From: Eledone cirrhosa
Lineage: Eukaryota
Reading direction: 5' to 3'
NCBI GenBank assembly: GCA_964016885.1
Contig: OZ024742.1
Coordinates: forward strand, 225,122,001-225,186,000
Length of the DNA stretch: 64,000 nt
The number at the start of each line of letters is the position of its first letter. Positions within the stretch are counted from its first letter, which is position 1. This document shows positions 7,906 through 30,120 of this stretch, one piece after another. The position numbers were made by a program, and so were the translations under genes. The notes under the pieces are model-generated. The model was not told where the DNA came from. It worked only from the letters and a program-made list of their open reading frames with translations, and did not search any database.

Positions 7906-8543
7906 AAGCCGATTCAACATGATTCGATATGTGACAAAACTGAACCTTGGAATTTCCGATTCAGTCAACCTCGACAAGCTTCCACACATCTACACAATTC
8001 CATTTACAAAACTAGCGTCGACCTGAAATACTGGCCAAGGAACTTGTCCAAGAAACCACTCATTGGGACCGAAGCCGGAACCTCATTATAATGCCTCAAC
8101 AATGCCTGTATCCTGAAAAAGAAACCAGTATAATATTAGTCAACAACTAAACATTTCTTGGGTGGTTTTTTTCTCCACACCACATTTTATTTCTAACTTA
8201 TTTTATTTCTAGCTAATCTATTGATTTTCCCAGCAATAACAATATTAATAACAATAAATTATAATTGCTATGGTTTACAACATCGACAATATTAGACTAT
8301 GTACCATTGAAACATTTGTACATACATGTTTATAAATATGTATATAGATATTTTTTTCGTACATTTACACTAACGAGGTCTGGTATGACAGAAACATCTC
8401 CGTAATCGCCTCGTACTTGTCGTAATAATAGATATAATATAAGTCACCGACTTACAATGTTTCCCCTATACCATTTTTCAATTTAGTTTATTGATCTACT
8501 CAGTAATAAATATAATGATTTCTTTTATTAGCTACAAGAGCCA

Positions 8544-8973
8544 AATAATAATGGTTTCTGATTTAGGCATAAAGCCAACAAATTTAGGGGAAAGGGGAAG
8601 TCTATTAAATCGACTCCAGTGCATTACTGGTACTTATTTTATCGACTCCGTAAGGATAAAAGGCAAAGCGGGATTTGAACTCAAATCGTAAAGGGGCGTA
8701 ACCTTGTACCTCAAAGCACATAGTTCGACGCTCTACCGATACTGCTAATCCAATAATGATAATGATTTCTAGTATAGGCACAAGGCCAGTAATTTTGAAG
8801 GAGGAGAAAGTCGATTAAATCGATCACAGTACGTTACTGGTACTTTATTTTATCAAACCCGTAAGGATGAAAGGCAAAGTTAACCTCGGCAGGATTTGAA
8901 CTCAGAATGTAAAAATGTCATAGCTCTATGTCGCTAAGAATATTGTCCGACGTTTTTCCGATACGGCCAATCC
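8544..8973 (-). mobile_element. Two tandem SINE family A copies (8544-8752, 8753-8973) linked by short (AAT)n
   Basis: Each has core, B box, A box and AAT tail. They are preceded at 8514-8542 by a ~30-bp Tx1-like 3' terminus. Confidence 0.88.
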
Positions 8974-9020
<47 letters not shown>

Positions 9021-9281
9021 TTTCTTTATTAACCACAAGGGTTTACATAAAGTAGACATTAAGGACAGTGCAGGACAATGCAGGACGGTACAAATGGGCA
9101 TTTCTGCGTGTAAAAAAAACAAAAACAGAGGATGTAACAAAAATAACAATGAAAATAACAATGAAAAATTCCCCAATAGGGGGGAGACTTCGGAGGGACA
9201 TTTGTGGAGAAAGCCCAGTAAAAAGCCACAATGACCCTGACCACCAAGGCAAGTGCCCTCTCCCAGTTTTCCACCTTTAAT

Positions 9282-12200
9282 TTACAGATATATGCTCAGA
9301 GTAGGCCCATTCACTCGGGCCATTCTTGCTTCTCTCACCCATCTTTCAACAAAATGCTGGGAAGAGAGCACTTCCCTCTCTACTCTGATTTTCCTTTTCA
9401 AATGAAATTTGAAAAAGTCAATCAGAGCATCACCGAAGAGGTAAGTGCTCGTCTTCAGCCCTTTCAAACGTGTCCACCATACTATCTCTTTCGCCATGGC
9501 CACCAGGCAGATAAAAACTGCCTGCCCTTCCCGGCTAAAGGAGGAGGGCGGGGCAATCCTCACGATGGACTCAGATGATAGCCGGATCCGTCCTAAACGC
9601 GACAGCAGGTGTTCGACATAAACCCACAAGTCAGCAATTTTCGGACACTGGACGAGTGCGTGCAGGACGGTTTCGTCGCCCTGCGCGCATCTCGGACATG
9701 CCCGGCTGACGGCACCTCCATGCCTGTAGAGTTTATCCCGAACTGGCAAGGCTCCTCGGTAGCACTGCCAGGCCAGAGATTTCTGGAAGTTGTCCATAGG
9801 CCCTGGCCCGAAAGTTCTTCCGAAGAGATTGGCTAGTTGATTTTCGTCGACGCCTAGAGTTTCCCCAAGTACGTCGTCGCTCTTCCCCTCCACTAATCCT
9901 CTATAGAACGCCGAGGTGGAGTTTCCACCGATCACATTGCCCGATTGGTCGAGGGCTGTGAGCGCCTGAAGACATTCCAGTCTCCAGGCGCTCCCTCTCG
10001 GTCTTCGCTTGACCCAGGACTGCAGCTCCGTCAAGGAAACGAGCTGGGGAAAAACGCGTCTAGCAAACGGCGACCACACCTGATCACCGTCGAGGAAGAG
10101 GTGGAGATGTCGTAGCCTGAGCGCGTGCCTGCGCATCATCAGCCACGGCATGCCCAGCCCTCCACGTAGCGGGTGTTGACAACAGATGGACCGCCTGACC
10201 ATCGGAGCACGTCCCTTCCACAAAAAGCGAAAGAGCAAACGCTCCAGCGCAGTCAGGCGAGGCTTAGGACAAGGTACGACGGTTAGGCGGTAGCAGATGA
10301 CAGACGCGATGTACGCGTTAGCCACCTCCGCTCGACCTTTCAGGGATAGCTTCCTCTCCGCCCATTTCTGGGTGAGAGAAGCCACCCTGCTCGTCACCTC
10401 GTCCCAGTTTTTGTCCGTCTGGAGGTCCGGACCGAACCAGACCCCTAGCAATTTAACCGGTCCGTCCGTCCAGCGCCCGACGACGCTGTTGGACGGCATG
10501 GACCTGCCTCTCCAGGTGCCGAGCTGCAGGCCCACTGACTTTTCCTGGTTGATCATTGCTCCTGTCACCGCTTCGTATTCTCTTAGTGTAGTGCCGATCG
10601 CCTCGATGTGTTTGGCGTTCGACACCACTACGGTGACATCGTCCGCATATGCTGACACGGATCTTCCGCATCCTAGTTCGCGCGGGACTCCCCTCAACGT
10701 CTCCAGTTTGTGCAGTAATGGCTCGAGAGTCAATACGTACAAGAGGGACGAGAGGGGACATCCTTGGCGGACCGAGCGCATGATGTTGAACGGTTCCGAC
10801 AGGTGACCGTTCACTCTCACCACAGAGCAGATGTCGCTGTGCATGGCAGCGATCCAGCCTCTGAAGACGGGCCCAAAGCCAGCCGCCCTCAGGACTGCCG
10901 CTAGGTAACGATGGTCGACCCTATCGAAAGCTTTCGACTGATCTAAATTGATCAAGGACCCACCCGTGCCAGGTTCCCTAGCTACCCTCTCTACGATGTA
11001 TCGCATGAGGTGGAGGTTGTCGTGGATGGATCTGTCGGGAATGGCGCATGTCTGCGCCTCTCCCACCAGACCACCAACGACAAGCGCCAACCTCTTTGCT
11101 AGCACCTTGGCCAAAATCTTAAACTCTGTGTTTAGCAGAGTTATGGGCCGGAAATTGTCTATGTTATCCCCCTTGTTCGGATCCTTTCTCAGCAGTGCCA
11201 CCGCTCCTCGGCTCACAGAACTGGGAATTCTCCCGTTCTGTTGCCAGTTGCAGTAGACGTCCGCCAAGAGGCCTCCGAACAAGTCTGGCATCTGTACGTA
11301 AAGTTCATAGGGCAGACCATCCAAACCAGGCGATTTACCCCTTGTGCAGCCAGTCATTGCCTCCCGTACTTCAGCGGCTGTTATCGGCTTTTCGCAACAC
11401 TTCGCCTCAGTGGCCGAGAGCCGCGGCAGTCCGTCGAGGTAGACACTAAAGTCCATCCCTCTACCCGGCCCCCCGCTGCCCCCGAACAGCTGAGCGAAGT
11501 GTCGCTGAAAAGCTTCACACATTTGCCCGGGATCGAGTAGCATGCGCCCGTCGTGGTCCACCAAAGACCGGATCGTGGCTTTGTTGCCACGACGCGCCTC
11601 CGCCACTCGGGCCCATTGAACGGCTTTCGTCCCCTCGTGTCTGAGAGCACGCACCCTAGCTCTGACAACGCAGCCTTCGTGCTTTGCATTGAAGAATTGG
11701 TCAAGGGCCAATTTCGCCGCAAGCACGTCGGTCGCAATGCCTTTGCTAAGCGCCTCGTCTAATTTTCTAACTAGTTCTCCCTCTGCTCTATTTTTCTCTA
11801 TTGCTAAAGCCTTACTAAACCTAATCGATTCTATTCTAATCGCTCTTTTCAGAGCAAACCACCACTTGTTGTTGACGATGGCCCCCGTCAACGCCCGCTT
11901 AACTAGTTCGCTAATCCGGTCTCTGTAGGCCTTGCGCGCTGGTAAGGACGCGTTTAGCTTCCAGTAGCCGGGTCCTCGTCTATGAAGCCTATCTAAGTCA
12001 AGCACACAGATCACGAATTTGTGGTCCGTGTAGCTGACTATCTTGAATTGTGGACAGCCTATGCTAGACCTATCTATTTCCCTACAAAATACTCTATCTA
12101 GATATGATCTGGATGACCCTATGCGGTTTGTCCAAGTCCACATTGGCACATTCGGGAAATCCAATCGGTACCTGTCAGACAGTTCAAAACGCCTGAGCAG

Positions 12201-12701
12201 GTTGGTGAGGCTCTTGCACCCTCCACCCCTATCCGCTAATCCCACACAGTCCCAGCGTGCATCTAAGATCCCGTTCCAGTCGCCCACTAACACTAAAGAG
12301 CGGGACGTTCCAAGAAAGGTCTCCAGACGCCGGAAGAAATCAGGCCGCCCTGCTCCTGTCGGGGCATAGACGGCCACTAGCCTGAAAGCTTGCCCGTCTC
12401 CGCTGGTCACGTCCAGCACCACCAGCTTACCCTCTGGGTCCAGGAAGATGGCCCGTATGGCGAGATCCAAACCTCTCCGAAAAAGCACAGCAACTCCTCC
12501 ACCGGATCCAGGACGGCTGGGAGATGCGTACACATCGAAGCCGCCGAAGATCGGTGCGAAGGCCCGTGCTTCGGAGATTCTGGTCTCGCTGATGGCCACT
12601 ACATCTATGTTTAGTGACCTGAGGTCGTTGAGCAGGTGACCCTGCTTCCATGACGACCCCAAGCCACGCGCATTTATGCTGCCTATTCTGAGTGAGGTCA
12701 T
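9282..12701 (-). CDS. LINE ORF2p: APE endonuclease, reverse transcriptase and C-terminal CCHC finger (1139 aa)
   Basis: SINARGL, ISET, VYAP, GDWN, YLDRVF, TDH, PGYWKLN; KSPGLDGL, FRPITLLN, LDQSKAFDRV, VRQGCPLS, AYADD, GGLGMP; CPRC..ETVLHALVQC. Confidence 0.97.
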   Translation of the reverse strand: MTSLRIGSINARGLGSSWKQGHLLNDLRSLNIDVVAISETRISEARAFAPIFGGFDVYASPSRPGSGGGVAVLFRRGLDLAIRAIFLDPEGKLVVLDVTSGDGQAFRLVAVYAPTGAGRPDFFRRLETFLGTSRSLVLVGDWNGILDARWDCVGLADRGGGCKSLTNLLRRFELSDRYRLDFPNVPMWTWTNRIGSSRSYLDRVFCREIDRSSIGCPQFKIVSYTDHKFVICVLDLDRLHRRGPGYWKLNASLPARKAYRDRISELVKRALTGAIVNNKWWFALKRAIRIESIRFSKALAIEKNRAEGELVRKLDEALSKGIATDVLAAKLALDQFFNAKHEGCVVRARVRALRHEGTKAVQWARVAEARRGNKATIRSLVDHDGRMLLDPGQMCEAFQRHFAQLFGGSGGPGRGMDFSVYLDGLPRLSATEAKCCEKPITAAEVREAMTGCTRGKSPGLDGLPYELYVQMPDLFGGLLADVYCNWQQNGRIPSSVSRGAVALLRKDPNKGDNIDNFRPITLLNTEFKILAKVLAKRLALVVGGLVGEAQTCAIPDRSIHDNLHLMRYIVERVAREPGTGGSLINLDQSKAFDRVDHRYLAAVLRAAGFGPVFRGWIAAMHSDICSVVRVNGHLSEPFNIMRSVRQGCPLSSLLYVLTLEPLLHKLETLRGVPRELGCGRSVSAYADDVTVVVSNAKHIEAIGTTLREYEAVTGAMINQEKSVGLQLGTWRGRSMPSNSVVGRWTDGPVKLLGVWFGPDLQTDKNWDEVTSRVASLTQKWAERKLSLKGRAEVANAYIASVICYRLTVVPCPKPRLTALERLLFRFLWKGRAPMVRRSICCQHPLRGGLGMPWLMMRRHALRLRHLHLFLDGDQVWSPFARRVFPQLVSLTELQSWVKRRPRGSAWRLECLQALTALDQSGNVIGGNSTSAFYRGLVEGKSDDVLGETLGVDENQLANLFGRTFGPGPMDNFQKSLAWQCYRGALPVRDKLYRHGGAVSRACPRCAQGDETVLHALVQCPKIADLWVYVEHLLSRLGRIRLSSESIVRIAPPSSFSREGQAVFICLVAMAKEIVWWTRLKGLKTSTYLFGDALIDFFKFHLKRKIRVEREVLSSQHFVERWVREARMARVNGPTLSIYL

Positions 12702-12736
12702 GTTTAAAATAGAGTGGAAAAGATGGGAAAGACCAC

Positions 12737-14833
12737 TTACCGTACTTTTGGTAGAGGAGGGATGGTTTTTACATCCCTTTTCACTTGATCGTCTGGTGAA
12801 GGGACCGTTGAATCGTCCCTTCGGCTGGTCGTCGGCTCTTCTAAGAGAATGTCTGAGTATACTCTTCGATTGATGGTTCCTCCTAGGTCCCTGAAATCAC
12901 CAACTGCGTTGGGGAATTTCGTTTTAATATTTGTGTATTGTTTCTGTGCTATTTTTAGCAGTCTTATGTTAGTTGGCGTTTTGATTGGTGCTGGTATTAT
13001 GTAGTCCTGTTGTGAAATGTCTGTGTGTTCAATTATGTAAGTCATTAGTTTCTTGTTGTGTGTATTTATTGCCGTGCATTTGTTTTTCTGGGGGTGGGGT
13101 GTGGTTCTGCTATTTTCTTGTCGTTGTTGCTGGGTGTGTGTGTTTTGTTGTTGTGTTTGCGATGTTGGTGCTTGTGGTGGTGGTGTTGAAGGTGTTGTTG
13201 GCGGTGGGGTTGTCGCCGGTGGTGATGGTGGCGCTAGTGTGGGTGGTGATGGTGTTGGTGTTGTTGCTGCTGTGGGTCTCTTTGCAGTAGACTTTACCCT
13301 TTTCTCATTTCTTTCCTCACTTTTCAAAGGCGACGATGCGCTGCTTCTGCGTTTGTGCCTTCTTACGACCTTTTGCCATCTCTCTCCCACCTCACACTCC
13401 ATGTCTGATTCTGTGAGGTCGGGGAGGGGTACCAACTCCACTCTTTCACTTGTTGTTGTTGGTGATGTTTGCACTGGAGTCTCTGTTGCAGCTGCATTTG
13501 GTATTGCTGTTGTTGTTGTTAGTATTTCCACTGCTGCTGCTGTTTTTGATTTCCGTGGAGTGGGTATGGGTGCCACGGGCCTATCGTTCCTGGTTGCCGC
13601 TTGTCCTGTTGCTGGTAGCCGTGGAGCCGGATTCGGAAGGAGGGGGGTTTTCTCCTTTCTCAGGGTCTTCTCGTTGCAGAAGGCCCTGAGGTGAGTCTTC
13701 GATCCACAGCGAAAGCATTTCGGGCGTTTGCCCTCAACACTTATGGGCAGTTGAGTGCCGTTATCGAAGTCTATCACATCCGGGATAGCTTCGATGCACT
13801 CCTGGTTGGTTTGGATTAGCATCTCAATGGAGGAGCCGACCCAATCTTCTCTTACTTTTTTCTGTACTTGCAGTACAGTTGTTTTGTCCTCGATTCCGAC
13901 GAGGACAGACGCGGCCAGCCAAGAAGGGGTCATTCCGGGGGGGACGTGGGTCAGTTTGACCCTCACAATTTTTTGCCCACAGTAGGAGGGCACCAACACC
14001 ATTTCCTCGCTCCTTAGGGTCACTACTGATTGGGCCTTTGCCTCCTGGGGTGTGGCAAAAAGTACGTCTACGGTGGCATATTTTTTGCCTCGGGTGATGT
14101 GCGTTTTCCGCTGCCACACAGACCCCAAGGCTTTTTGTATTTGGGCCTCTGTGGCTCTTTCCACCCTACGGGATTTTGTACTTACTGTACGGTACGTGAC
14201 CGTACAGTGCTCTTGGGTTTCGAAAAATTTTTCCGCTGCCTTGCAGATTGCTCGGTGTCCGTTCTTTGTCACCATCTTCTTCGCTTCCTCTAATTCCTCA
14301 TTTGTTATGAGGATTGTTTCCAGGTTTTTCGCAATACCTGCAAATGAGATTGGTTTTTCTCTGCTGTTGTTGTTGTCGTCAGAGCTGCTGGTACTTTTGT
14401 TGTTGCTGCAGGTACTACGACTACTGCCTCCGCCGCTGTTGCTGTGGTTGTTGTTGGTGTTGCTGCTGCTAATGCTGTTGTTGTTTATGCTGCTGGTGAT
14501 GCTGTTGCGGCTGCTACTGTTGTTTTCATTGTCACTGTTGCTGTTGTTATTACGGCTGCTACTGCTATTATTCCTGACGTCAGACGAATGAACTGGGTTT
14601 TCGTATTTCCCGCACACCTGTTTCGTCGCTGTCGTCGTCGTCGTGGAGAAACCTTGCACGCTTTGCACGAGACTTTTCTTTTCTTTCGTCACTTGCGAAA
14701 GAGAAGGGAGGGAGAGAGACACATTTAAAGAAGGGAGGGAGAGAGACAATCTTCTCTCTGCTGTAGTGATGATTGAGGAAGAAGAAGACGGAATGAGTGG
14801 GAGTGACGTATGAAATTTCTTTTTGGTAGCCAT
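12737..14833 (-). CDS. LINE ORF1p (nucleic-acid chaperone with one CCHC knuckle and N/S- and P/T-rich regions)
   Basis: First ATG at 14833 (AAAACATGG); the track starts upstream at a TTG. CFRCGSKTHLRAFC knuckle; WQKVVRR motif; lies 35 nt upstream of ORF2. Confidence 0.9.
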   Translation of the reverse strand: MATKKKFHTSLPLIPSSSSSIITTAERRLSLSLPSLNVSLSLPSLSQVTKEKKSLVQSVQGFSTTTTTATKQVCGKYENPVHSSDVRNNSSSSRNNNSNSDNENNSSSRNSITSSINNNSISSSNTNNNHSNSGGGSSRSTCSNNKSTSSSDDNNNSREKPISFAGIAKNLETILITNEELEEAKKMVTKNGHRAICKAAEKFFETQEHCTVTYRTVSTKSRRVERATEAQIQKALGSVWQRKTHITRGKKYATVDVLFATPQEAKAQSVVTLRSEEMVLVPSYCGQKIVRVKLTHVPPGMTPSWLAASVLVGIEDKTTVLQVQKKVREDWVGSSIEMLIQTNQECIEAIPDVIDFDNGTQLPISVEGKRPKCFRCGSKTHLRAFCNEKTLRKEKTPLLPNPAPRLPATGQAATRNDRPVAPIPTPRKSKTAAAVEILTTTTAIPNAAATETPVQTSPTTTSERVELVPLPDLTESDMECEVGERWQKVVRRHKRRSSASSPLKSEERNEKRVKSTAKRPTAATTPTPSPPTLAPPSPPATTPPPTTPSTPPPQAPTSQTQQQNTHTQQQRQENSRTTPHPQKNKCTAINTHNKKLMTYIIEHTDISQQDYIIPAPIKTPTNIRLLKIAQKQYTNIKTKFPNAVGDFRDLGGTINRRVYSDILLEEPTTSRRDDSTVPSPDDQVKRDVKTIPPLPKVR

Positions 14834-15070
14834 GTTTTTTTGTTTAAAATGAAATTTTGGGTACAAAACCCCAATAACTGGTTATTTAACCCCGAAGGGC
14901 CAAATAACGGACAGAAAGACCCCTCTCACGAGGAGGAGGGTGTCTTTATCAACAATTTGGTTCAAGTTTTAAACAATTTACAATTGTTTTAACGGTTAAA
15001 AATTACTATACCTTACAGAGCCGAGCCTCCGTCAACCATGGCATTCAATAATAATAATAATAATAATAAT

Positions 15071-15315
15071 GATTACTTATCGCAAATCCCAGGAAACCCG
15101 CGTATAGGAGAAATACAAAAGATAGTACTAATGGGAACTGCCCATATACTAAGGAAGATTCTGTCAATATAAGTACATCACAAGTCTAAACACTAAAGAT
15201 GCATGTGTGAATATGTATGTTCTTTCTTGAACATGGCGGACCTTGTTGTCTCTTGAGGTCACTGGTTGTGACTTGGTGATTACTCGTATGAACATAAAGC
15301 AAGATAAATGCAACT

Positions 15316-15316
<1 letters not shown>
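15071..15316 (+). mobile_element. 246-bp 3' fragment of an R4/Dong-like RLE LINE (cassette D1)
   Basis: Encodes DYLSQIPGNPRIGEIQKIVLMGTAHILRKILSI*, homologous to LQKACLMGTARTLRYVLNI* at the end of the 21731 ORF. Followed by a 3'UTR and (TAA)n. Confidence 0.85.
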
Positions 15317-15367
<51 letters not shown>

Positions 15368-15627
15368 TTTCTTTATTAACCACAAGGGTTTACATAAAGT
15401 AGACATTAAGGACAGTGCAGGACAATGCAGGACGGTACAAATGGGCATTTCTGCGTGTAAAAAAACAAAAACAGAGGATGTAACAAAAATAACAATGAAA
15501 ATAACAATGAAAAATTCCCCAATAGGGGGGAGACTTCGGAGGGACATTTGTGGAGAAAGCCCAGTAAAAAGCCACAATGACCCTGACCACCAAGGCAAGT
15601 GCCCTCTCCCAGTTTTCCACCTTTAGT

Positions 15628-18600
15628 TTACAGATATATACTCAGAGTCGGCCCATTCACTCGGGCCATTCTTGCTTCTCTCACCCATCTTTCAACAAAA
15701 TGCTGGGAAGAGAGCACTTCCTTCTCTACTCTGATTTTCCTTTTCAAATGAAATTTGAAAAAGTCAATCAGAGCATCACCGAAGAGGTAAGTGCTCGTCT
15801 TCAGCCCTTTCAAACGTGTCCACCATACTATCTCTTTCGCCATGGCCACCAGACAGATAAAAACTGCCTGCCCTTCCCGGCTAAAGGAGGAGGGCGGGGC
15901 AATCCTCACGATAGACTCAGATGATAGCTGGATCCGTCCTAAACGCGACAGCAGGTGTTCGACATAAACCCACAAGTCAGCAATTTTCGGACACTGGACG
16001 AGTGCGTGCAGGACGGTTTCGTCGCCCTGCGCGCATCTCGGACATGCCCGGCTGACGGCACCTCCATGCCTGTAGAGTTTATCCCGAACTGGCAAGGCTC
16101 CTCGGTAGCACTGCCAGGCCAGAGATTTCTGGAAGTTGTCCATAGGCCCTGGCCCGAAAGTTCTTCCGAAGAGATTGGCTAGTTGATTTTCGTCGACGCC
16201 TAGAGTTTCCCCAAGTACGTCGTCGCTCTTCCCCTCCACTAATCCTCTATAGAACGCCGAGGTGGAGTTTCCACCGATCACATTGCCCGATTGGTCGAGG
16301 GCTGTGAGCGCCTGAAGACATTCCAGTCTCCAGGCGCTCCCTCTCGGTCTTCGCTTGACCCAGGACTGCAGCTCCGTCAAGGAAACGAGCTGGGGAAAAA
16401 CGCGTCTAGCAAACGGCGACCACACCTGATCACCGTCGAGGAAGAGGTGGAGATGTCGTAGCCTGAGCGCGTGCCTGCGCATCATCAGCCACGGCATGCC
16501 CAGCCCTCCACGTAGCGGGTGTTGACAACAGATGGACCGCCTGACCATCGGAGCACGTCCCTTCCACAAAAAGCGAAAGAGCAAACGCTCCAGCGCAGTC
16601 AGGCGAGGTTTAGGACAAGGTACGACGGTTAGGCGGTAGCAGATGACAGACGCGATGTACGCGTTAGCCACCTCCGCTCGACCTTTCAGGGATAGCTTCC
16701 TCTCCGCCCATTTCTGGGTGAGAGAAGCCACCCTGCTCGTCACCTCGTCCCAGTTTTTGTCCGTCTGGAGGTCCGGACCGAACCAGACCCCTAGCAATTT
16801 AACCGGTCCGTCCGTCCAGCGCCCGACGACGCTGTTGGACGGCATGGACCTGCCTCTCCAGGTGCCGAGCTGCAGGCCCACTGACTTTTCCTGGTTGATC
16901 ATTGCTCCTGTCACCGCTTCGTATTCTCTTAGTGTAGTGCCGATCGCCTCGATGTGTTTGGCGTTCGACACCACTACGGTGACATCGTCCGCATATGCTG
17001 ACACGGATCTTCCGCATCCTAGTTCGCGCGGGACTCCCCTCAACGTCTCCAGTTTGTGCAGTAATGGCTCGAGAGTCAATACGTACAAGAGGGACGAGAG
17101 GGGACATCCTTGGCGGACCGAGCGCATGATGTTGAACGGTTCCGACAGGTGACCGTTCACTCTCACCACAGAGCAGATGTCGCTGTGCATGGCAGCGATC
17201 CAGCCTCTGAAGACGGGCCCAAAGCCAGCCGCCCTCAGGACTGCCGCTAGGTAACGATGGTCGACCCTATCGAAAGCTTTCGACTGATCTAAATTGATCA
17301 AGGACCCACCCGTGCCAGGTTCCCTAGCTACCCTCTCTACGATGTATCGCATGAGGTGGAGGTTGTCGTGGATGGATCTGTCGGGAATGGCGCATGTCTG
17401 CGCCTCTCCCACCAGACCACCAACGACAAGCGCCAACCTCTTTGCTAGCACCTTGGCCAAAATCTTAAACTCTGTGTTTAGCAGAGTTATGGGCCGGAAA
17501 TTGTCTATGTTATCCCCCTTGTTCGGATCCTTTCTCAGCAGTGCCACCGCTCCTCGGCTCACAGAACTGGGAATTCTCCCGTTCTGTTGCCAGTTGCAGT
17601 AGACGTCCGCCAAGAGGCCTCCGAACAAGTCTGGCATCTGTACGTAAAGTTCATAGGGCAGACCATCCAAACCAGGCGATTTACCCCTTGTGCAGCCAGT
17701 CATTGCCTCCCGTACTTCAGCGGCTGTTATCGGCTTTTCGCAACACTTCGCCTCAGTGGCCGAGAGCCGCGGCAGTCCGTCGAGGTAGACACTAAAGTCC
17801 ATCCCTCTACCCGGCCCCCCGCTGCCCCCGAACAGCTGAGCGAAGTGTCGCTGAAAAGCTTCACACATTTGCCCGGGATCGAGTAGCATGCGCCCGTCGT
17901 GGTCCACCAAAGACCGGATCGTGGCTTTGTTGCCACGACGCGCCTCCGCCACTCGGGCCCATTGAACGGCTTTCGTCCCCTCGTGTCTGAGAGCACGCAC
18001 CCTAGCTCTGACAACGCAGCCTTCGTGCTTTGCATTGAAGAATTGGTCAAGGGCCAATTTCGCCGCAAGCACGTCGGTCGCAATGCCTTTGCTAAGCGCC
18101 TCGTCTAATTTTCTAACTAGTTCTCCCTCTGCTCTATTTTTCTCTATTGCTAAAGCCTTACTAAACCTAATCGATTCTATTCTAATCGCTCTTTTCAGAG
18201 CAAACCACCACTTGTTGTTGACGATGGCCCCCGTCAACGCCCGCTTAACTAGTTCGCTAATCCGGTCTCTGTAGGCCTTGCGCGCTGGTAAGGACGCGTT
18301 TAGCTTCCAGTAGCCGGGTCCTCGTCTATGAAGCCTATCTAAGTCAAGCACACAGATCACGAATTTGTGGTCCGTGTAGCTGACTATCTTGAATTGTGGA
18401 CAGCCTATGCTAGACCTATCTATTTCCCTACAAAATACTCTATCTAGATATGATCTGGATGACCCTATGCGGTTTGTCCAAGTCCACATTGGCACATTCG
18501 GGAAATCCAATCGGTACCTGTCAGACAGTTCAAAACGCCTGAGCAGGTTGGTGAGGCTCTTGCACCCTCCACCCCTATCCGCTAATCCCACACAGTCCCA

Positions 18601-19047: not shown

Positions 19048-19082
19048 GTTTAAAATAGAGTGGAAAAGATGGGAAAGACCAC

Positions 19083-21416: not shown

Positions 21417-21661
21417 GATTACTTATCGCAAATCCCAGGAAACCCGCGTATAGGAGAAATACAAAAGATAGTACTAATGGGAACTGCCCATATACTAAGG
21501 AAGATTCTGTCAATATAAGTACATCACAAGTCTAAACACTAAAGATGCATGTGTGAATATGTATGTTCTTTCTTGAACATGGCGGACCTTGTTGTCTCTT
21601 GAGGTCACTGGTTGTGACTTGGTGATTACTCGTATGAACATAAAGCAAGATAAATGCAACT

Positions 21662-21662
<1 letters not shown>
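21417..21662 (+). mobile_element. R4/Dong-like 3' cassette D2
   Basis: Appears identical to 15071-15316, with the same (AAT)8 linker upstream. Confidence 0.87.
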
Positions 21663-21732
<70 letters not shown>

Positions 21733-21734
<2 letters not shown>

Positions 21735-22988
21735 AGGAATTGTTAAGAACTCAATACATTCGGAGAGTACGGAGCGTATTGAAGTCACATCTGAACAGCA
21801 GAAATGCCATAAGCGCAGTAAATTCCCGAGCTGTGTCTATTATTAGGTACAGTGCGGGAATTCTGAGATGGAATGTTGCTGAACAAAAAGAAATGGATAG
21901 GAAGACTAGGAAGCTATTGACTATCTACAACATGTTCCACAAGAGGAGTGATGTCGATAGACTCTACTTAAGGAGATCTGAGGGTGGAAGAGGTCTTATC
22001 AGCATAGAGGACTGTGTTCAGATGGAGAAAAACAACCTACACAAATACGTGACTGATAGTAAGGAGCCAATGCTCAGAACTGTACTGAAGGAGGGGATAA
22101 TAGGCCAGGGGATGTCCAAGGAGGAAATAACAACAAGGAGAAAGAGCAGCCTTCAGGAAAAATCCCTTCATAGTACCTTCTTTGAGAAAACTGAATTTAG
22201 AGATCCACAGACATGGAACTGGTTGAAAAGAGGAGACCTTAAAAAGGCTACAGAAGGAATGTTAATGGCTGCGCAGGAGCAGGCCCTCAAAACGAAGTGG
22301 TTGAAACACCATATTTACAGGGAGGAGGCTAGCCCACTGTGCAGGATCTGTGGAGAGAGAGAGGAGACTGTGGCTCACATTGTATCCGAGTGTAAACACC
22401 TAGCCCAGGCCCACTATAAGGGCTGGAGACATGATATGATGGGCAGGGTGATCCACTGGCACCTATGCAAAGTAAACAATTTACCACATTCTGAGAAATG
22501 GTATGAGCATAGGCCAGAGGCGGTGATACAGAACGATCAGGTGAAGGTGCTGTGGGATTTTAGGATACAGACGGACAAGAAACTGGAACACAATAGATCT
22601 GACCTGGTGGTTGTGGACAAAGAAAAAAGATCGTGCTTGATTGTGGATGTGGCCTGCCCATTCGACACGAGAGTGCAAGAGAAGGAGAGGGAGAAAATTA
22701 ACCGATACCAGGACTTAAAGTGGGAGGTAAAAAGGATTTGGAACTGCCATGAAGTCAAAGTGATCCCGATTGTCATAGGCGCACTAGGGACTATCTCCGA
22801 AAGTTTCCAGGGATGGTTAAAGAAAATCGGCCCCTTCACGCTTTTTGGAACGCTTCAAAAGGCATGCTTGATGGGAACAGCAAGAACCCTCCGATACGTC
22901 CTGAATATCTGAGGCTGCAGGTAGTGGCTTGATATTCATTCCAACAAACTTTCCAGTTAACTAACATCAATGACAGAGACTCAATGAG
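21733..22988 (+). mobile_element. 5'-truncated R4/Dong-like RLE LINE in (TAA)n (393-aa open C-terminal ORF 21731-22912)
   Basis: LYLRRSEGGRGL, LMAAQEQAL, CRIC..ETVAHIVSEC, RHD, SDLVVVD..VDVACP, IVIGALG. (TAA)n on both sides. The ATG is formed by the junction with the repeat. Confidence 0.92.
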
Positions 22989-23260
22989 TAATAACAATAA
23001 TAATAATAATAATAATGTTTTCTTTATTAACCACAAGGGTTTACATAAAGTAGACATTAAGGACAGTACAGGACAATACAGGACGGTACAAATGGGCATT
23101 TCTGTGTGTAAAAAAAACAGAGGATGAAATAAAATAACAAAGAAAAATTCCCCAATAGGGGGGAGACTTCCGAGGGACATTTGTGGAGAAAGCCCATTAA
23201 AAGACCACAGTGGCCCTGACCACCAGCGCAAGTTCCCTCTCCCAGTTTTCCACCTTTAAT

Positions 23261-26200
23261 TTACAGACACATACTCAGAGAAGGCCCATTCATTCGGGCC
23301 ATACTTGCTTCTCTCACCCATCTTTCAACAAAATGCTGGGAAGAGAGCACTTCCCTCTCTACCCTGATTTTCCTTTTCAGATGAAATTTGAAAAAGTTAA
23401 TCAGGGCATCACCGAAGAGGTAAGTGCTCGTCTTCAGCCCTTTCAAACGTGTCCACCATACTATCTCTTTCGCCATGGCCACCAGACAGATAAAAACTGC
23501 CTGCCCTTCCCGGCTAAAGGAAGGAGGCGGGGAAATCCTCACGATGGACTCAGCTGATAGCTGGATCCGTCCTACACGTGACAGCAGGCGTTCGACATAA
23601 ACCCACAAGTCAGCAATGCTCGGACACTGGACGAGTGCGTGCAGGACGGTTTCGTCGCCCTGCGCGCATCTCGGACATGCCCGGATGACGGCACCTCCAT
23701 GCCTGTAGAGTTTATCCCGAACTGGCAAAGCTCCTCGGTAGCACTGCCAGGCCAGGGATTTCTGGAAGTTGTCCATAGGCCCCGGCCCTAAAGTCCTTCC
23801 GAAGAGATTGGCTAGTTGATTTTCGTCGACGCCTAGAGTTTCTCCAAGTACGTCGTCGCTCTTCCCCTCCACTAATCCCCTATAGAACGCCAAGGTGGAG
23901 TTTCCACCGATCACATTTCCCGATTGGTCGAGGGCTGTGAGCGCCTGAAGACATTCCAGTCTCCAAGCGCTCCCTCTCGGTCTTCGCTTGACCCAGGACT
24001 GCAGCTCCGTCAAGGAGATGAGCTGGGGAAAAACGTGTCTAGCAAACGGCGACCACACCTGATCACCGTCGAGGAAGAGGTGGAGATGTCGTAGCCTGAG
24101 CGCGTGTCTGCGCATCATCAGCCACGGCATGCCCAGCCCTCCACGTAGCGGGGGTTGACAGCAGATGGACCGCCTGACCATCGGAGGCGCTCCGGCCTCC
24201 CTTCCACAAAAAGCGAAAGAGCAAACGCTTCAGCGCAGTCAGGCGGGGCTTAGGAGAAGGTACGACGGTCAGGTGGTAGTAGATGACGGATGCGATGTAC
24301 GCATTCGCCACCTCCGCTCGACCTTTCAGGGATAGCTTCCTCTCGGCCCATTTCTGGGTGAGAGAAGCCACCCTGCTCGTCACCTCGTCCCAGTTTTTGT
24401 CCGTCTGGAGGTCTGCACCGAACCAGACCCCTAGCAATTTAACCGGTCCGTCCGTCCAGCGCCCGACGACGCTGTTGGACGGCATGGGCCTGCCTCTCCA
24501 GGTGCCGAGCTGCAGGCCAACTGACTTTTCCTGGTTGATCATTGCTCCTGTCACCGCTTCGTATTCTCTTAGTGTAGTGCCGATCGCCTCGATGTGTTTG
24601 GCGCTCGACACCACTACGGTGACATCGTCGGCATATGCTGACACGGATCTTCCGCATCCTAGTTCGCGCGGGACCCCCCTCAACGTCTCCAGTTTGTGCA
24701 GTAATGGCTCTAGAGTCAATACGTACAATAGGGACGAGAGGGGACATCCTTGGCGGACCGAGCGCATGATGTTGAACGGTTCCGAAAGGTGACCGTTCAC
24801 TCTCACTACAGAGCAGATGTCGCTATGCATGGCAGCGATCCAGCCTCTGAAGACGGGCCCAAAGCCAGCCGCCCTCAGGACTGCCGCTAGGTAACGATGG
24901 TCGACCCTATCGAAGGCTTTCGACTGATCTAAATTGATCAAAGACCCACCCGTGCCAGGTTCCCTAGCTACCCTCTCTACGATGTATCGCATGAGGTGGA
25001 GGTTGTCGTGGATGGATCTGTCGGGAATGGCGCATGTCTGTGCCTCTCCCACCAGACCACCAACGACAAGCGCCAACCTCTTTGCTAGCACCTTGGCCAA
25101 AATCTTGAACTCTGTGTTTAGCAGAGTTATGGGCCTGAAATTATCTATGTTATCCCCCTTGTTCGGATCCTTTCTCAGCAGCGCCACCGCTCCTCGGCTC
25201 ACAGAGCTGGGAATTCTCCCGTTCTGTTGCCAGTTGCAGTAGACGTCCGCCAAGAGGCCTCCGAACAAGTTTGGCATTTGTACGTAAAGTTCATAGGGCA
25301 GACCATCCAAACCAGGCGATTTACCCCTTGTGCAACTAGTCATTGCATCCCGTACTTCAGCGGTTGTTATCGGCTTTTCGCAACACTCCGCCTCAGTGGC
25401 CGAAAGCCGCGGCAGTCCGTCGAGGTAGACACTAAAGTCCATCCCTCGATCCGGCCCGCCACTGCCCCCGAACAGTTGAGCGAAGTGTCGCTGTAAAGCT
25501 TCACACATTTGCCCGGGATCGAGTAGCATGCGCCCGTCGTGGTCCACCAAAGACCGGATCGTGGCTTTGTTGCCACGACGCGCCTCCGCCACTCGGGCCC
25601 ATTGAACGGCTTTCGTCCCCTCGTGTCTGAGAGCACGCACCCTAGCTCTGACAACGCAGCCTTCGTGCTTTGCATTGAAGAATTGGTCAAGGGCCAATTT
25701 CGCCGCAAGTACGTCGGTCGCGATGCCTTTGCTAAGCGCCTCATCTAATTTTCTAACTAATTCTCCCTCTGCTCTATTTTTCTCTATTGCTAAAGTCTTA
25801 CTAAACCTAATGGACTCTATTCTAATTGCTCTTTTCAGAGCAAACCACCACTTGTTGTTGACGATGGCCCCCGTCAACGCCCGCTTAACTAGTTCGCTAA
25901 TCCGGTCTCTGTAGGCCTTGCGCGCTGGTAAGGACGCGTTTAGCTTCCAGTAGCCGGGTCCTCGTCTATGAAGCCTATCTAAGTCAAGCACACAGATCAC
26001 GAATTTGTGGTCCGTGTAGCTGACTATCTTGAATTGTGGACAGCCTATGCTAGACCTATCTATTTCCCTACAAAATACTCTATCTAGATATGATCTGGAT
26101 GACCCTATGCGATTTGTCCAAGTCCACATTGGTACATTCGGGAAATCCATTCGGTACCTGTCAGACAGTTCAAAACGTCTGAGCAGGTTGGTGAGACTCT

Positions 26201-26688
26201 TGCACCCTCCTTCCCTATCCACTAATCCCACACAATCCCAGCGTGCATCTAAGATCCCGTTCCAGTCGCCCACTAACACTAAAGAGCGGGACGTTCCAAG
26301 AAAGGTCTCCAGACGCCGGAAGAAATCAGGCCGCCCTGCTCCTGTCGGGGCATAGACGGCCACTAACCTGAAAGCTTGCCCGTCTCTGCTGGTCACGTCC
26401 AGCACCACCAACTTACCTTCTGGGTCCAGGAAGATGGCCCGTATGGCAAGATCCAAACCTCTCCGAAAAAGCACAGCAACTCTTTCCCCCCGAACCCGGA
26501 CGGCTGGGAGATGCGTACACATCGTAGCCGCCGAAGATCGGTGCGAAAGCCTGTGCTTCGGAGATTCTGGTCTCGCTGATGGCCACTACATCTATGTTTA
26601 GTGACCTGAGGTCGTTGAGCAGGTGGCCCTGCTTCCATGACGACCCCAAGCCACGCGCATTTATGCTGCCTATTCTGAGTGAGGTCAT
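23261..26688 (-). pseudogene. ORF2 of LINE B, with two frameshifts
   Basis: Split across ORFs 26413-26715, 24063-26522 and 23261-24181; +1 nt near 26485 and +7 nt near 24190 relative to A. Confidence 0.92.
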
Positions 26689-26722
26689 GTTGAAAAGGAG
26701 TGGAAAAGATGGCAAAGACCAC

Positions 26723-28721
26723 TTACCTTACTTCTCGTAGGGGAAGGACGGTTTTTCCATCCTTTTCACTGCTTGTGGCCTCCTCAGGAAGGATTTCCTT
26801 ATAAATCCTCCTGGAGAGTGCTTGTCGGAAGTCTGCGATGTCTTTGGGGAATTTTTGTTTTAGTGTCATGTACGTTTTCTGTGTGATGCGAGTGATTTGT
26901 ATGTGTGGAGGTGGTGTGAATTTTGGGGTTGTTGTGTAGTCTTTTTCTGTGATGCTGGTGTTGTGTTGGATGTAGTGTAATAATTGCTTGTTGTTCAAAT
27001 TTAATGCTGTGTAGTGTGTATCGTTTTGGTTGTTTTGTTTTGTTTGCGTTTGTTGTGGGTTTGTTTCTGTTTCGCATTTTGGTGACTTTTGTGGTGTAGG
27101 TGATGGTGGTGCTGGGGTTAATGATGGTGATGGTGTTGGTGTTTGGGTTGATGGGGTTGGTGATGCTGGTGTGGATGGTGGCATATCTGTCCTAACTTTT
27201 TTGTTTCTTAATTTATTTGTTTCCCTCTGTATTTTGTTTTTGGAGGGGGAAGGAAGAGAATTTTTTCTTTTTTGGTTTCTTTTTTTTTTCCGGATATCGT
27301 TTCTCACTCCTCGTCGTCACAATCTGTCTCCAGTTGTGATAGGCCGGGGAGTGGAAAATCCTCCACAGCCGTTAGTTTTGGTTGTGGTGTGGTGGATGGT
27401 GTAGGCGCTGGTGCTAGTTCTGAAGCGTTGGGTGGTGGTGGTGTTGGTTTTGCTGGTGGTGCTAGTGGTGTTGGTTTTGCTACTGTTGCTGGGGTTGTTG
27501 CTGTTATAGTTGCTTCTGTTGTTACTGCTACAGTTGTTGCTGCCATCTCTGCTACTGGTGGTGTTGATGGTTGTGTCACTGGGGTGGGTAGGAGAGGTGG
27601 CCTCAACCTTTTAGCCTGAGGGCAGAAAGCCCTTAGGTGGGTTCCTTCACCACAAACGACACACCTAGGTCTTCTGCCCTCGACAATTACCGTGCGGTGG
27701 CTGCCGTCAGTGAGGTCTATTACCTCTGGGATCTCCTCAATGCTTTTTTGGTCCGCTTGGATCAGGAGCTCCATCCCAGATCCGGACCAGTTCTCCTGCT
27801 TTTCTTTTGCTATTGCTATTATTTTCGTGTTGGCTTCGATGCCGGCGAGGACGGCCGCTATTAGCCAGGGAATTTCGATGGCCGGTGGAACGTGGGTCAC
27901 CCTGATCTTTACGAGTCTCTGGCCACAATAGCTTGGGACGAGTGTGAAGTCGTCACTTCTTAATGGGGCCATGGAGTGTTCTCTAGCCTCCTCTGGTGTT
28001 TCAAAGAACACATCCACGGTTCCATACTTTTGCCCACGTCTGATGTGGGTTTTTCTTGCCCACACATGTCCCAAAGCTTTTTGGATTTGGGACTCGGATG
28101 CCCGTTCCACTCGGCGCGATTTTAAATTTATTGTTCTATACGACACGGTGCATAGGCGCCGATGCTCCATTTTATTAGGTGGGGGGGTGAGGCTGACCCT
28201 GTACCCATCTTTCTTTACCATTTGTTTTGCATTTTCTAAATCCTCCTGAGTTACCGTAAATGCTTCGAACTGTTTTGCTACTCTGGCGAAACTGAGGGTC
28301 GGTTTTATAATGTCATTGTTGTTGTTGTTGCTATCGTTATTTGTGTTAATATTAATTTTAGTTTCAGTTGTGGTGGTGGTGACGTCAGTCGTCTTTGGTG
28401 GGGAAGAGTCCATTTTGCTTGATTTCATTTCGATATCACGAGTTAATTTATTTTTTTCTTCTTTTGTTTCTGTTGTCGCGGTGGTGGTGGGGTGGTGGTT
28501 GTCGCCGTGGTGGTGGTGGTGGTGGAGGCTTTAACACCTGCAGTCATTGGTAATGGCGGGAAATGAATGTCTGCCTGAGACAAATTTAAAATATTGCTAC
28601 TGCTTATATTTTTTTTTTTTGTGTTGGCAAACGTAGTAACATTTACAATGGTGGTGTCGGTGTGAGGTGTTAATTTGTGAGGAAGGCTTTCAGCTGTTTG
28701 GTGCAGAGGTGAATTAGCCAT
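26723..28721 (-). pseudogene. ORF1 of LINE B, frameshifted
   Basis: Pieces 28443-28721, 27304-28428 (CVVCGEGTHLRAFC knuckle; KSRRVERA, QIQKALG and LVPSYCGQ shared with A) and 26723-27307. Confidence 0.88.
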
Positions 28722-28930
28722 TTTTTTCAAAGAAATTTTTTTTGATAATAATAAAAATTTAAATTTTGGGCACAAGGCCCCAATCTTTTTGGGTGTCCTT
28801 TTCGGAAAACAATGTATGTGCGCTTATAAACAGTTAACAATAAAATTTTCCATAAATGACAATTTTTAACAAACGGAAATAACAAACCTTTGCGGAGCTC
28901 ACGATGATACGATTTACTACGTAGGTCGCC

Positions 28931-28972
<42 letters not shown>

Positions 28973-28974
<2 letters not shown>

Positions 28975-29218
28975 TTACTTATCGCAAATCCCAGGAAACC
29001 CGCGTATAGGAGAAATACAAAAGATAGTACTAATGGGAACTGCCCATATACTAAGGAAGATTCTGTCAATATAAGTACATCACAAGTCTAAACACTAAAG
29101 ATGCATGTGTGAGTATGTATGTTCTTTCTTGAACATGGCGGACCTTGTTGTCTCTTGAGGTCACTGGTTGTGACTTGGTGATAACTTGTATGAACATAAA
29201 GCAAGATAAATGCAACTG
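28973..29218 (+). mobile_element. R4/Dong-like 3' cassette D3
   Basis: Same boundaries as D1/D2; about 3 substitutions seen. Confidence 0.87.
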
Positions 29219-29237
29219 TAATAATAATAATAATAAT

Positions 29238-29619
29238 GATTTCATTTATTAGCCACAAGGGCCGACATGTAGGGGACAATACAAAGACAGGGACAGTGGG
29301 GGTTTACAATAAGGTCGAGTAAAAGTGCACAATGGCAAGACTAATTTAACAATGAAAATATAAAAATATAAAATAATCTATGCATAAATATAACAAAATA
29401 AATTCCCCGATAGGGGGTGGACGACCCTGGGGTGATTCGGGTACCCCACCAATCCTGAACCACCCTGTGCTTCTAGGGCACCCAGGAGAGCACCCCTCTC
29501 CTCAAGTAGCCAGCCTGTAGGCGCATGGTCAGAGTAGGCCCATTCACACGAGCCATTCTCGCCACATTCACCCACCTTTTAGCAAATGTACTGGGGGGGG
29601 CAGCACTTCTCTCTCCACT
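29238..29619 (-). mobile_element. 5'-truncated 3' end of another Tx1 subfamily (C)
   Basis: Encodes ..PSTFAKRWVNVARMARVNGPTLTMRL (compare ERWVREARMARVNGPTLSIYL in A). Different 3'UTR but the same terminal motif; (AAT)n on both sides. Confidence 0.85.
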
Positions 29620-29808
29620 AATAATAATTGTTTCTACTTTTTGGCACAAGGCCAGCAAATATTCAGTGCATTACTGGTACTTTATTTTATCGACCCCGTA
29701 AGGATGAAAGGCAAAGCTAACTTTTGCGGGATTTGAACTCAGAACGTAAAGGGCCGTAACTCTGTGCTGAAAAGCATGGCGTCCGAGCCTCTACCGATAC
29801 TACCAATG
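29620..29808 (-). mobile_element. SINE family A copy
   Basis: Core, boxes and AAT tail present. Confidence 0.88.
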
Positions 29809-30120
29809 CAATAATGATAATAATAATTCTCTCAAAAAACCAAAAGCAACTAACCACTTCAAGCAAATACTACCTTAACCCCATAGGGTCGTTGCCCCAA
29901 CACCTACCCCACCACACATACAAAAGATCAACTGGCATATGTCAACACCCCTGCTACATCCCCTACAGATATAATTTACCCACCATTTATAAACTTAATT
30001 CATTTTATTAATTACTTTTTATATTTTTTGTTATTTTATTTGGTCAAAACTATAATTTTTTCATTTTTCTCTTACGCTTTCCCTCTTCCTTTCTCTCCAT
30101 ATATATGTGTTGGCGTGCGT

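What the first reader, a model, noticed from the sequence alone, without database searches (positions are those of the whole stretch)
8514..29830. 21-kb chain of retroelements joined by (AAT)n: Tx1 LINEs and SINEs on one strand, Dong-like LINEs on the other
Seen: about 12 consecutive elements are separated only by (AAT)n linkers. All Tx1 copies (A1, A2, B, C) and the SINEs are on minus with (ATT)n tails. All RLE/Dong-like pieces are on plus with (TAA)n tails. Full-length Tx1 copies have (AAT)n at the 5' end as well, so it is a target and not only a tail. Known: Dong/R4 elements target (TAA)n, and Tx1-clade members can be microsatellite-specific (Kibi, Koshi). Inference: an (ATT)n-specific APE LINE with intact ORFs shares one target with an unrelated RLE LINE in the opposite orientation, and each insertion lays down new target, giving a self-extending landing pad.
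Basis: partly seen in the sequence, partly recalled or inferred. Interest (0 to 1): 0.8.

Follow-up and report, generated by a model that had tools for sequence, protein, structure and literature searches.

The report
AAT-targeting LINE and its SINE passenger
A young jumping gene with thousands of copies sits mostly in AAT repeats and nearly always faces the opposite way to an unrelated jumping gene in the same repeats; it likely cuts DNA at the short word ATAAT and likely also spreads a short repeat found over 100,000 times in this animal's genome.

Summary
Confirmed: 12 retroelement pieces lie in a chain joined by AAT repeats, with L1/Tx1-type LINEs and SINEs on minus and Dong-like LINEs on plus. 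Genome-wide, 1,607 of 1,649 full-length Tx1-A 5' ends and 7,376 of 9,671 3' ends abut (AAT)3 on the same strand. Better proof: no unique-sequence target duplication beside 58 arrays, so the arrays pre-existed. New: a SINE (at least 120,217 copies) shares the LINE's 3' hairpin (loop CUUGU, covarying stem) and its insertion signature (~16-bp duplication ending ATAAT, next base G in 21/27). It is probably this LINE's passenger. Yet at most 18.5% of SINEs sit in arrays, about what site availability gives, against 76% of LINEs. So the nicked word is short, and array-seeking needs something extra. A1/A2 here is a recombination-type duplicate, not two insertions; most tandem pairs checked elsewhere look independent. 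Verdict: new variant of target-specific Tx1-type LINEs, with a target and SINE partner I did not find in print; clade tree and biochemistry untested.

The parts
8517..8545 (-). Tx1-type 3' end stub (hairpin with CUUGU loop, then AATAAA)
8553..8752 (-). SINE with B-box-like GAGTTCAAATCC and a degenerate 3' hairpin
8764..8974 (-). SINE with 3' hairpin GGC-CTTGT-GCC
8977..9018 (+). (AAT)14 array
9019..15046 (-). Tx1-A1, full length (6,028 bp); chimera: the 3' ~0.6 kb carries alleles of another A sublineage, the 5' ~4.8 kb is identical to A2
9031..9043 (-). 3' hairpin AACC-CTTGT-GGTT, followed by AATAAA (9025-9030)
9282..12698 (-). A1 ORF2, 1,138 aa from the first Met: APE endonuclease, RT (YADD), C-terminal zinc motif
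12737..14833 (-). A1 ORF1, 698 aa from the first Met: RRM-like core and CCHC knuckle within low-complexity arms
15047..15070 (+). (AAT)8 array at the A1 5' end
15071..15317 (+). Dong-like family D2, 247-bp 5'-truncated 3' end
15318..15365 (+). (AAT)16 array
15366..21392 (-). Tx1-A2, full length, both frames open (ORF2 15628-19044, ORF1 19083-21179)
21393..21416 (+). (AAT)8 array at the A2 5' end
21417..21663 (+). Dong-like D2 247-bp piece, identical to 15071-15317 including a private variant
21664..21732 (+). (AAT)23 array
21733..22988 (+). Dong-like family D1, 5'-truncated; CCHC motif and restriction-like endonuclease region
22989..23016 (+). AAT array with one AAC unit; (AAT)7 perfect from 22996
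23017..28930 (-). Tx1-B, full length; ORF2 region 95.5% identical to A but frameshifted; own ORF1 (53% aa identity to A in the core) and own 5' end
28931..28972 (+). (AAT)14 array at the B 5' end
28973..29219 (+). Dong-like D2 247-bp piece, same truncation point, 3 differences from the other two
29220..29237 (+). (AAT)6 array
29238..29619 (-). Tx1-C, 382-bp 3' piece of a diverged subfamily, hairpin GGCC-CTTGT-GGCT
29629..29810 (-). SINE of the abundant subfamily, hairpin TGGC-CTTGT-GCCA, flanked by (AAT)3 and an imperfect AAT run to 29827

Best explanation
The stretch is a chain of 12 retroelement pieces joined by AAT repeats, built around a young L1/Tx1-type LINE whose endonuclease likely nicks the AAT-reading strand at ATAAT|purine and which likely also copies the genome's abundant SINE, while Dong-like LINEs occupy the same repeats facing the other way. 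Shown: fixed orientation, array enrichment, ~16-bp target duplications ending in ATAAT, a G/purine bias just after the cut, and a 3' hairpin shared by LINE and SINE. Inferred steps: (1) ORF2p binds the hairpin (loop CUUGU) about 12 nt from the RNA 3' end. (2) APE nicks 5'-WATAAT|R-3', and the freed ...ATAAT-OH pairs with AUU carried on the RNA and primes reverse transcription. (3) A second nick ~16 nt away duplicates about five AAT units. (4) LINE copies lying in arrays would be transcribed with (AUU)n at both ends, so their RNA and cDNA pair best with long arrays and full-length insertions are completed there. SINE RNA from dispersed copies carries only a few AUU bases and goes to any ATAAT. 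(5) Each insertion leaves arrays on both sides, and the LINE's own 3' end begins with G, recreating AAT|G, so chains grow. Dong would nick the other strand. Recombination adds to chains, as in A1/A2.
For: Array flanks: 1,607 of 1,649 A 5' ends followed by (AAT)3; 30 of 30 sampled B 5' ends, of 1,672; 7,376 of 9,671 3' ends. Orientation at the ends where it is not forced by a tail, among 229 arrays in chromosome-C1 loci: Tx1 5' ends 102 of 103, Dong truncated 5' ends 30 of 30, SINE 5' ends 9 of 9 as in the window. Arrays pre-existed: of 58 copies with (AAT)3 at the 3' end, 4 matched a duplication test; two were array variants, one the element's own 5' end and one a tandem repeat, and none was unique flank (P about 1e-9 against the SINE rate). 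Off-array LINE copies: 12 of 40 have 10-19-bp duplications ending ATAAT, with a purine next in 10 of the 11 readable. SINEs, flank not preselected: 27 clean duplications among 104 3' ends, median 16 bp, 27/27 end TAAT, next base G in 21 against 25% background, P 1.6e-8. Hairpin: 4 of 4 stem pairs change on both sides across 13 ends, and 0 of 500 shuffles reach the covariation score. Of 388 ends with this motif, 201 were classed SINE and 156 Tx1; 28 were unclassed and 3 were called Dong but show SINE or Tx1 stems; no other LINE family was recognised. Head-to-tail chains: 29 of 85 arrays at full-length 5' ends run into another Tx1 3' end; 10 of 13 adjacent A-A pairs elsewhere show no long identical block. 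APE and RT are L1-type by sequence and fold.
Against: No nicking or transposition assay and no RNA data. Only 15 of 33 truncated copies have AAT at the 5' junction, and 28 of 40 off-array copies show no duplication of 10 bp or more. The off-array LINE set was selected with AAT fixed in the pattern, so only the SINE set is unbiased. The hairpin is only 4 bp, the 13 rows were hand-picked and are related, and the tool warns that shuffles overstate significance. SINEs are older (about 85-90% identical to one another) than Tx1-A, so an older subfamily may have moved them. Samples come mostly from the start of one chromosome. Step 4 is not tested, and selection could give the same pattern.
Confidence: 0.72

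Rival explanations
1. Specificity comes from RNA-DNA pairing alone: a loose AT-rich nuclease nicks widely, and only nicks whose 3' end pairs with the RNA's AUU repeats are extended.
For: 27 of 27 SINE duplications end in TAAT, the complement of the RNA's flank. Such pairing is proposed for RTE, I, R1Bm and SART1. It would explain why LINEs prefer longer arrays than SINEs (76% against at most 18.5%).
Against: The base after the cut is G in 21 of 27 SINE sites although the SINE end has T at that position, so pairing cannot select it. For TRAS1/SART1 the paper read names the endonuclease as the primary determinant.
Confidence: 0.2
2. The machinery sees only ATAAT|R; 6-kb LINEs are concentrated in arrays because copies elsewhere are purged by selection, or because the older SINEs were moved by a laxer ancestor.
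For: SINEs lie in (AAT)3 at the rate of site availability (18/104 against 177/1,036; at most 22,237/120,217). Off-array LINE copies are mostly short (7 of 41 full-length against 39 of 72 overall, P 1e-4). Pieces under 400 bp are in arrays 11/18 against 14/15 for longer truncated ones.
Against: Even short pieces are in arrays far more often than SINEs of similar size. Tx1-A is very young (unlinked copies differ by a median 57 substitutions in 6 kb), leaving little time for purging.
Confidence: 0.25
3. The SINE is moved by another LINE (RTE, CR1 or L2), and the resemblance of its 3' end to Tx1 is convergence or an old relic.
For: The shared segment is only about 25 nt. RTE and CR1 are abundant and active in Octopus vulgaris. 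The part of a published table of SINE/LINE tail pairs that I read lists no animal L1/Tx1 partner.
Against: Same hairpin loop, spacing, strand, duplication length and ATAAT end as Tx1. No other LINE family with this end was recognised among 388 occurrences. The published RTE signature differs (duplication starts with T about 10 nt after a T stretch).
Confidence: 0.12
4. There is no targeting: the arrays are tails and leaders made by the elements, and chains arise by tandem duplication or misassembly.
For: A1/A2 is a duplicate sharing a private Dong variant. Three of 13 adjacent pairs elsewhere share identical 5' blocks of 1.4-3.1 kb. 5' arrays are tied to full length.
Against: No unique-flank duplication at 58 arrays. 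Duplications at off-array sites include the AAT. Most adjacent pairs differ like unlinked copies, and different subfamilies stand side by side.
Confidence: 0.04

Closest known systems
Kibi, Koshi and crocodilian microsatellite-preferring Tx1 families
   Same: APE-encoding L1/Tx1-group LINEs inserted into a microsatellite.
   Different: Their targets are (TC)n, (TTC)n, (TTCC)n or (TTTC)n; here it is (AAT)n, with a short core word read from dispersed sites. Kinship was not tested by a tree.
TRAS1 and SART1 of the silkworm
   Same: Two LINEs enter one repeat, (TTAGG)n, in opposite directions; about 10-12 bp are recognised; RNA-target pairing helps priming.
   Different: Both are APE elements at telomeres. 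Here an APE LINE and a restriction-like-endonuclease LINE share dispersed microsatellites, and a SINE uses the same site.
Dong (R4 clade, recalled)
   Same: The plus-strand pieces end in (TAA)n, follow (AAT)n at their truncated 5' ends (30 of 30) and carry a C-terminal CCHC and nuclease region; Dong targets TAA microsatellites.
   Different: Nothing new found in the Dong-like pieces; two families, D1 and D2, are present.
Tx1-Mar and SINEU in crocodilians
   Same: A target-preferring Tx1 is inferred to mobilise a SINE that shares its target.
   Different: There the evidence is shared target, age and U1/U2 heads, and the target is a Mariner element. Here a tRNA-type SINE shares a structured 3' end and the duplication signature.
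Monocot L1 (LINE1-1_ZM) and ZmSINE2/3, stringent-type 3' recognition
   Same: An L1-clade LINE and SINEs share a 3' hairpin with compensatory changes and a conserved loop.
   Different: Plant lineage, loop UCU, poly(A)/T ends, no microsatellite target.

Membership tests
L1 group / Tx1 clade | APE endonuclease at the N-terminus of ORF2 with catalytic residues | tested here: met
   PF03372 E 5.6e-14; INARG, SET, VYAP, GDWN, YLDR and TDH align with L1 EN; the model matches L1 EN, TMt about 0.8.
L1 group / Tx1 clade | L1-type reverse transcriptase and C-terminal zinc motif | tested here: met
   Best solved relative is L1 ORF2p, E 3e-52, against 1e-21 for R2; zf-RVT E 8e-8; top fold hits are L1 ORF2p.
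L1 group / Tx1 clade | ORF1 with RRM and CCHC knuckle rather than the mammalian Transposase_22 type | tested here: met
   C-x2-C-x4-H-x4-C in A and B; Atlas look-alikes carry zf-CCHC and ZCCHC3/RRM-type domains, scores 0.88-0.93, a lead only; no Pfam hit for A's ORF1; PMC5203782 links this type to Tx1.
L1 group / Tx1 clade | Target preference (more than 20% of flanks of one kind, Kojima's criterion) | tested here: met
   76% of 3' ends and 97.5% of A 5' ends abut (AAT)3.
Tx1 clade | RT groups with named Tx1, Keno, Kibi or Koshi in a tree | not testable with these tools
   No named Tx1 reference among 93 hits; close relatives (38-45%) are unnamed; the one named animal hit is a Ciona pol-like protein at 27%.
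Kibi / Koshi | (TC)n or (TTC)n target | tested here: not met
   The target is (AAT)n; a few truncated copies (3 of 33) abut (GAA)n at the 5' junction.
Dong / R4 | C-terminal CCHC plus restriction-like endonuclease, single ORF without APE | tested here: met
   Motifs; weak matches to the R2 C-terminus (E 0.03-0.17); full-length relatives are mostly 1,050-1,200 aa with RT, and none of the 120 listed has PF03372.
Dong / R4 | (TAA)n target and tail | tested here: met
   71 3' ends and 30 truncated 5' ends at arrays, all in one orientation.
Dong / R4 | RT phylogeny with named Dong or R4 | not tested
tRNA-derived SINE | Pol III boxes, short length, high copy number, target duplication | tested here: met
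   B-box-like GAGTTCAAATCC in four copies, about 180-210 bp; 120,217 exact 29-mer hits; duplications. ARAGORN and Rfam found no tRNA, so the tRNA origin itself is inferred.
Octopus OK / OR1 / OR2 SINEs | Sequence identity to the published families | not testable with these tools
   Ohshima and Okada 1994 was not read; it is only cited.

The most novel reading that the evidence does not exclude
A currently expanding, sequence-specific Tx1-type LINE with stringent 3'-hairpin recognition is the engine of the main SINE family of this (probably octopod) genome. One endonuclease word, ATAAT|R, gives two landscapes: SINEs scatter over millions of single sites, while the LINE breeds inside arrays because its own RNA carries the array at both ends. 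That heritable, RNA-borne feedback builds mixed chains with Dong on the opposite strand.
Probability: 0.4. Interest if true: 0.72.

Novelty: new variant of a known kind. Interest (0 to 1): 0.58.

Why it matters
SINEs make up about 11.6% of the Octopus vulgaris genome, and most active ones are unclassified; active L1-Tx1 and Dong-R4 families are listed there, and the word 'target' does not occur in that paper's main text. If this holds, it names the driver of a major SINE family and gives an animal case of an L1/Tx1-type LINE with hairpin-dependent RNA recognition. It adds AAT to the known Tx1 targets and shows two unrelated endonucleases sharing one microsatellite by strand. It also supplies a young family with many open ORF2 frames as a concrete candidate for germline and somatic insertion assays, with a predictable site that makes new insertions easy to recognise.

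Tried and rejected
DNA similarity search of the own genome with the A 5' end returned nothing because common words are skipped; exact patterns were used instead. Idea that the 247-bp Dong piece is a SINE-like family or travels with Tx1: rejected, since 30 of 30 sampled copies run on upstream as longer Dong and only 17 places genome-wide have this truncation, against 2,485 matches of the start word. Whether the third piece in the window is an independent insertion is unresolved. High A1/A2 identity alone does not prove duplication, as an unlinked copy is as close over the 3' 3.6 kb; the proof is the identical 5' 4.8 kb plus the private Dong variant. Sequencing runs: no RNA holder listed; no reads were laid. 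Metagenome relatives (80 loci, at most 37% identity) showed no CTTGT hairpin end, and two had a TAA/TTA run of unknown relevance. Rfam and ARAGORN gave nothing useful. Earlier-findings look-ups were empty. A search for ZCCHC3+Tx1+ORF1 found no paper. Alignment A2 held one row in the wrong orientation and was redone. The second half used a poor motif and was replaced. In one search the printed row for L080 disagreed with the tally; the rerun confirms 15 of 33. Rows dropped: of 76 3' ends, L061 and L071 (ran past the DNA held) and L090 and L196 (tandem repeats of a neighbour); of 40 SINE duplications, 9 pure-array and 4 tandem cases.
Full report
Observation. The window is G000:C3:225,122,001-225,186,000 of a 3.0-Gb animal genome. 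No call names the organism; I take it for an octopus-type cephalopod from memory of its SINEs and simple repeats, and the presence of active Dong-R4 and L1-Tx1 families in O. vulgaris fits. The chain is as described: 12 pieces, Tx1-type LINEs and SINEs on minus, Dong-like pieces on plus, with all seven perfect (AAT)>=6 runs of the window inside it. A1 and A2 have open ORF1 and ORF2. ORF2 has an APE domain with its catalytic motifs, an RT and a zinc motif; its closest solved relative by sequence and by predicted fold (mean pLDDT 67.7) is human L1 ORF2p. ORF1 has a CCHC knuckle and an RRM-like core. B shares ORF2 (95.5% DNA identity, frameshifted) but has its own ORF1 and 5' end. The plus-strand pieces belong to two families of APE-less RT elements with a C-terminal CCHC and nuclease region.

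Genome-wide flanks. An exact 22-mer of the A 5' end occurs 1,649 times, and 1,607 of these are followed within 4 bases by (AAT)3. The B 5' end occurs 1,672 times, and 30 of 30 sampled are followed by (AAT)3. The shared 3' 21-mer occurs 9,671 times, 7,376 of them after (AAT)3. In 229 arrays from chromosome-C1 loci, the ends whose orientation is not fixed by a tail agreed with the window in 102 of 103 Tx1 5' ends, 30 of 30 truncated Dong 5' ends and 9 of 9 SINE 5' ends; one SINE 3' end was also reversed.

Tail or target. The 5' array is not proof by itself: among the first 76 listed 3' ends (72 kept), 39 of 39 full-length but 15 of 33 truncated copies have two AAT units at the 5' junction (P 2.5e-8). 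The 5' arrays are also longer (median 9 units for A, 16 for B) than a 16-bp duplication. Part of that array probably travels with the full-length RNA; this is inferred. The better test: if arrays were tails laid at unique sites, unique flank would reappear at the other end. Of 58 copies it did so in none; the 4 matches were two array variants, the element's own end and a tandem repeat. Away from arrays (47 sites genome-wide by a restrictive pattern, 40 fetched whole), 12 copies show 10-19-bp duplications that run up to the element and end in ATAAT, with a purine next in 10 of the 11 readable. There the AAT beside the 3' end is target and no tail was added. That pattern fixed the AAT, so this set shows existence, not frequency.

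The SINE. All minus-strand elements end alike: a 3-4-bp stem, loop CUUGU, about 12 nt, then ATT. Stems are ACC/GGT in A and B, GCC/GGC in C-type LINEs, GCT/AGC in the stub and GGC/GCC in SINEs. All 4 pairs change on both sides, and slid controls fall to 13-56% paired; the rows were hand-picked and related. Among 388 such ends in the loci held, 201 were classed SINE, 156 Tx1, 28 unclassed (mostly short pieces or another Tx1 subfamily) and 3 were called Dong but show SINE or Tx1 stems. A 29-mer of the SINE end occurs 120,217 times. With flanks not preselected, 91 of 104 SINE 3' ends follow ATAAT. Twenty-seven clean duplications have median length 16 bp, all end TAAT, and the next base is G in 21 and a purine in 26 (background G 25%, P 1.6e-8). 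The SINE itself has T at that position, so RNA pairing cannot explain the G; I read it as the endonuclease's signature. Shared hairpin, strand, duplication length and site make the SINE a likely passenger of this LINE group.

A contrast to explain. Only 18 of 104 SINEs, and at most 22,237 of 120,217 genome-wide, follow (AAT)3, close to the share of ATAAT-purine sites that lie in arrays (177 of 1,036 in 395 kb). LINEs do so in 76%. Off-array LINE copies are mostly short (7 of 41 full-length against 39 of 72). My preferred reading is that LINE RNA from array-embedded copies carries (AUU)n at both ends, since the AATAAA signal lies only a few bases before the array, and so primes and completes best in arrays. 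Selection against long dispersed copies, or a laxer ancestor for the older SINEs, remains open.

How chains grow. Of 85 arrays at full-length 5' ends, 29 run straight into another Tx1 3' end, 13 into truncated Dong and 10 into a SINE 3' end. By rough arithmetic from about 7.9 million ATAAT-purine sites, a few percent would be expected without array preference. Of 13 adjacent A-A pairs elsewhere (chosen from the listed tandem spacings, plus one from the earlier sample), differences were 22-247 substitutions against a median of 57 for unlinked pairs. Three pairs share identical 5' blocks of 1.4-3.1 kb, and two more share an array variant with low divergence. So both insertion and recombination contribute. 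In the window, A1 is identical to A2 over its 5' 4.8 kb, the (AAT)8 and the Dong piece with a private variant, but carries another sublineage's alleles in its 3' 0.6 kb. This fits repair of an older copy from A2 that ran through the Dong piece into the next array, or a haplotype misassembly.

Comparison and novelty. Microsatellite-specific Tx1 families are known for TC, TTC, TTCC and TTTC, and Dong for TAA (PMC4494074, passages and sections 15-16; PMC3812793, passages). Opposite use of one repeat is known for TRAS1/SART1 (PMC7265360, passages). Hairpin sharing between an L1-clade LINE and SINEs is known in monocots, and the table I read lists no animal L1/Tx1 pair (PMC3747384, passages and part 1 of 2 of section 21). 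Also seen: PMC13282606 (part 1 of 3 and passages), PMC6007223 (abstract and discussion), and passages of PMC4758252, PMC4824008, PMC5203782, PMC4640811 and PMC9115989. Searches showed no paper on an AAT-targeting Tx1 or on the partner LINE of octopus SINEs. Kojima and Fujiwara 2004, Ohshima and Okada 1994, Repbase Reports, the figure listing Tx1 targets in PMC4494074 and all supplements were not seen and could hold an earlier description. Tx1-clade membership rests on domain layout and behaviour, not on a tree.

Verdict. A real, genome-wide system: new variant of a known kind, interest 0.58, confidence in the mechanism 0.72.

Noticed in passing
window 38347-39432 (+): Open frame with weak RT and GIY-YIG matches (E 6e-4 and 2e-3, below the curated cut-offs), likely a Penelope-like element fragment.
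   Followed up: partly
window 5651-6289 (+): Open frame with a CCHC-like motif resembling the Dong-like pieces; no Pfam hit.
   Followed up: partly
window 7711-7901 (-): SINE 93.7% identical to the one at 8559-8749, 850 bp to its left and outside the chain, without an AAT run at its 3' end.
   Followed up: no
window 45300-48070: GGT-rich low-complexity tract that gives long meaningless open frames.
   Followed up: no
window 15071, 21417, 28973 and L091-L107: The same Dong truncation point, at an internal TAAT, recurs at 17 places in the genome, suggesting microhomology joining to the array; one other (L100, same chromosome) also follows a Tx1-B 5' end.
   Followed up: partly
window 12737-15046 versus 26770-28930: Subfamilies A and B share ORF2 but differ in ORF1 and 5' end, each with about 1,650 full-length ends: a 5'-module swap.
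   Followed up: partly
L343-L346 (G000:C1:114.79-114.81 Mb): Four tandem A copies all have one AAC at the sixth unit of their 5' array, although L343 differs from the others by 66-76 substitutions.
   Followed up: partly
L161 (G000:C1:34,774,639-34,781,339): A truncated Tx1 copy is joined at its 5' break to a few TTAGGG telomere-like repeats.
   Followed up: no
L009, L010: Two loci show the same inverted SINE-SINE junction followed by an inverted Tx1 3' part.
   Followed up: no
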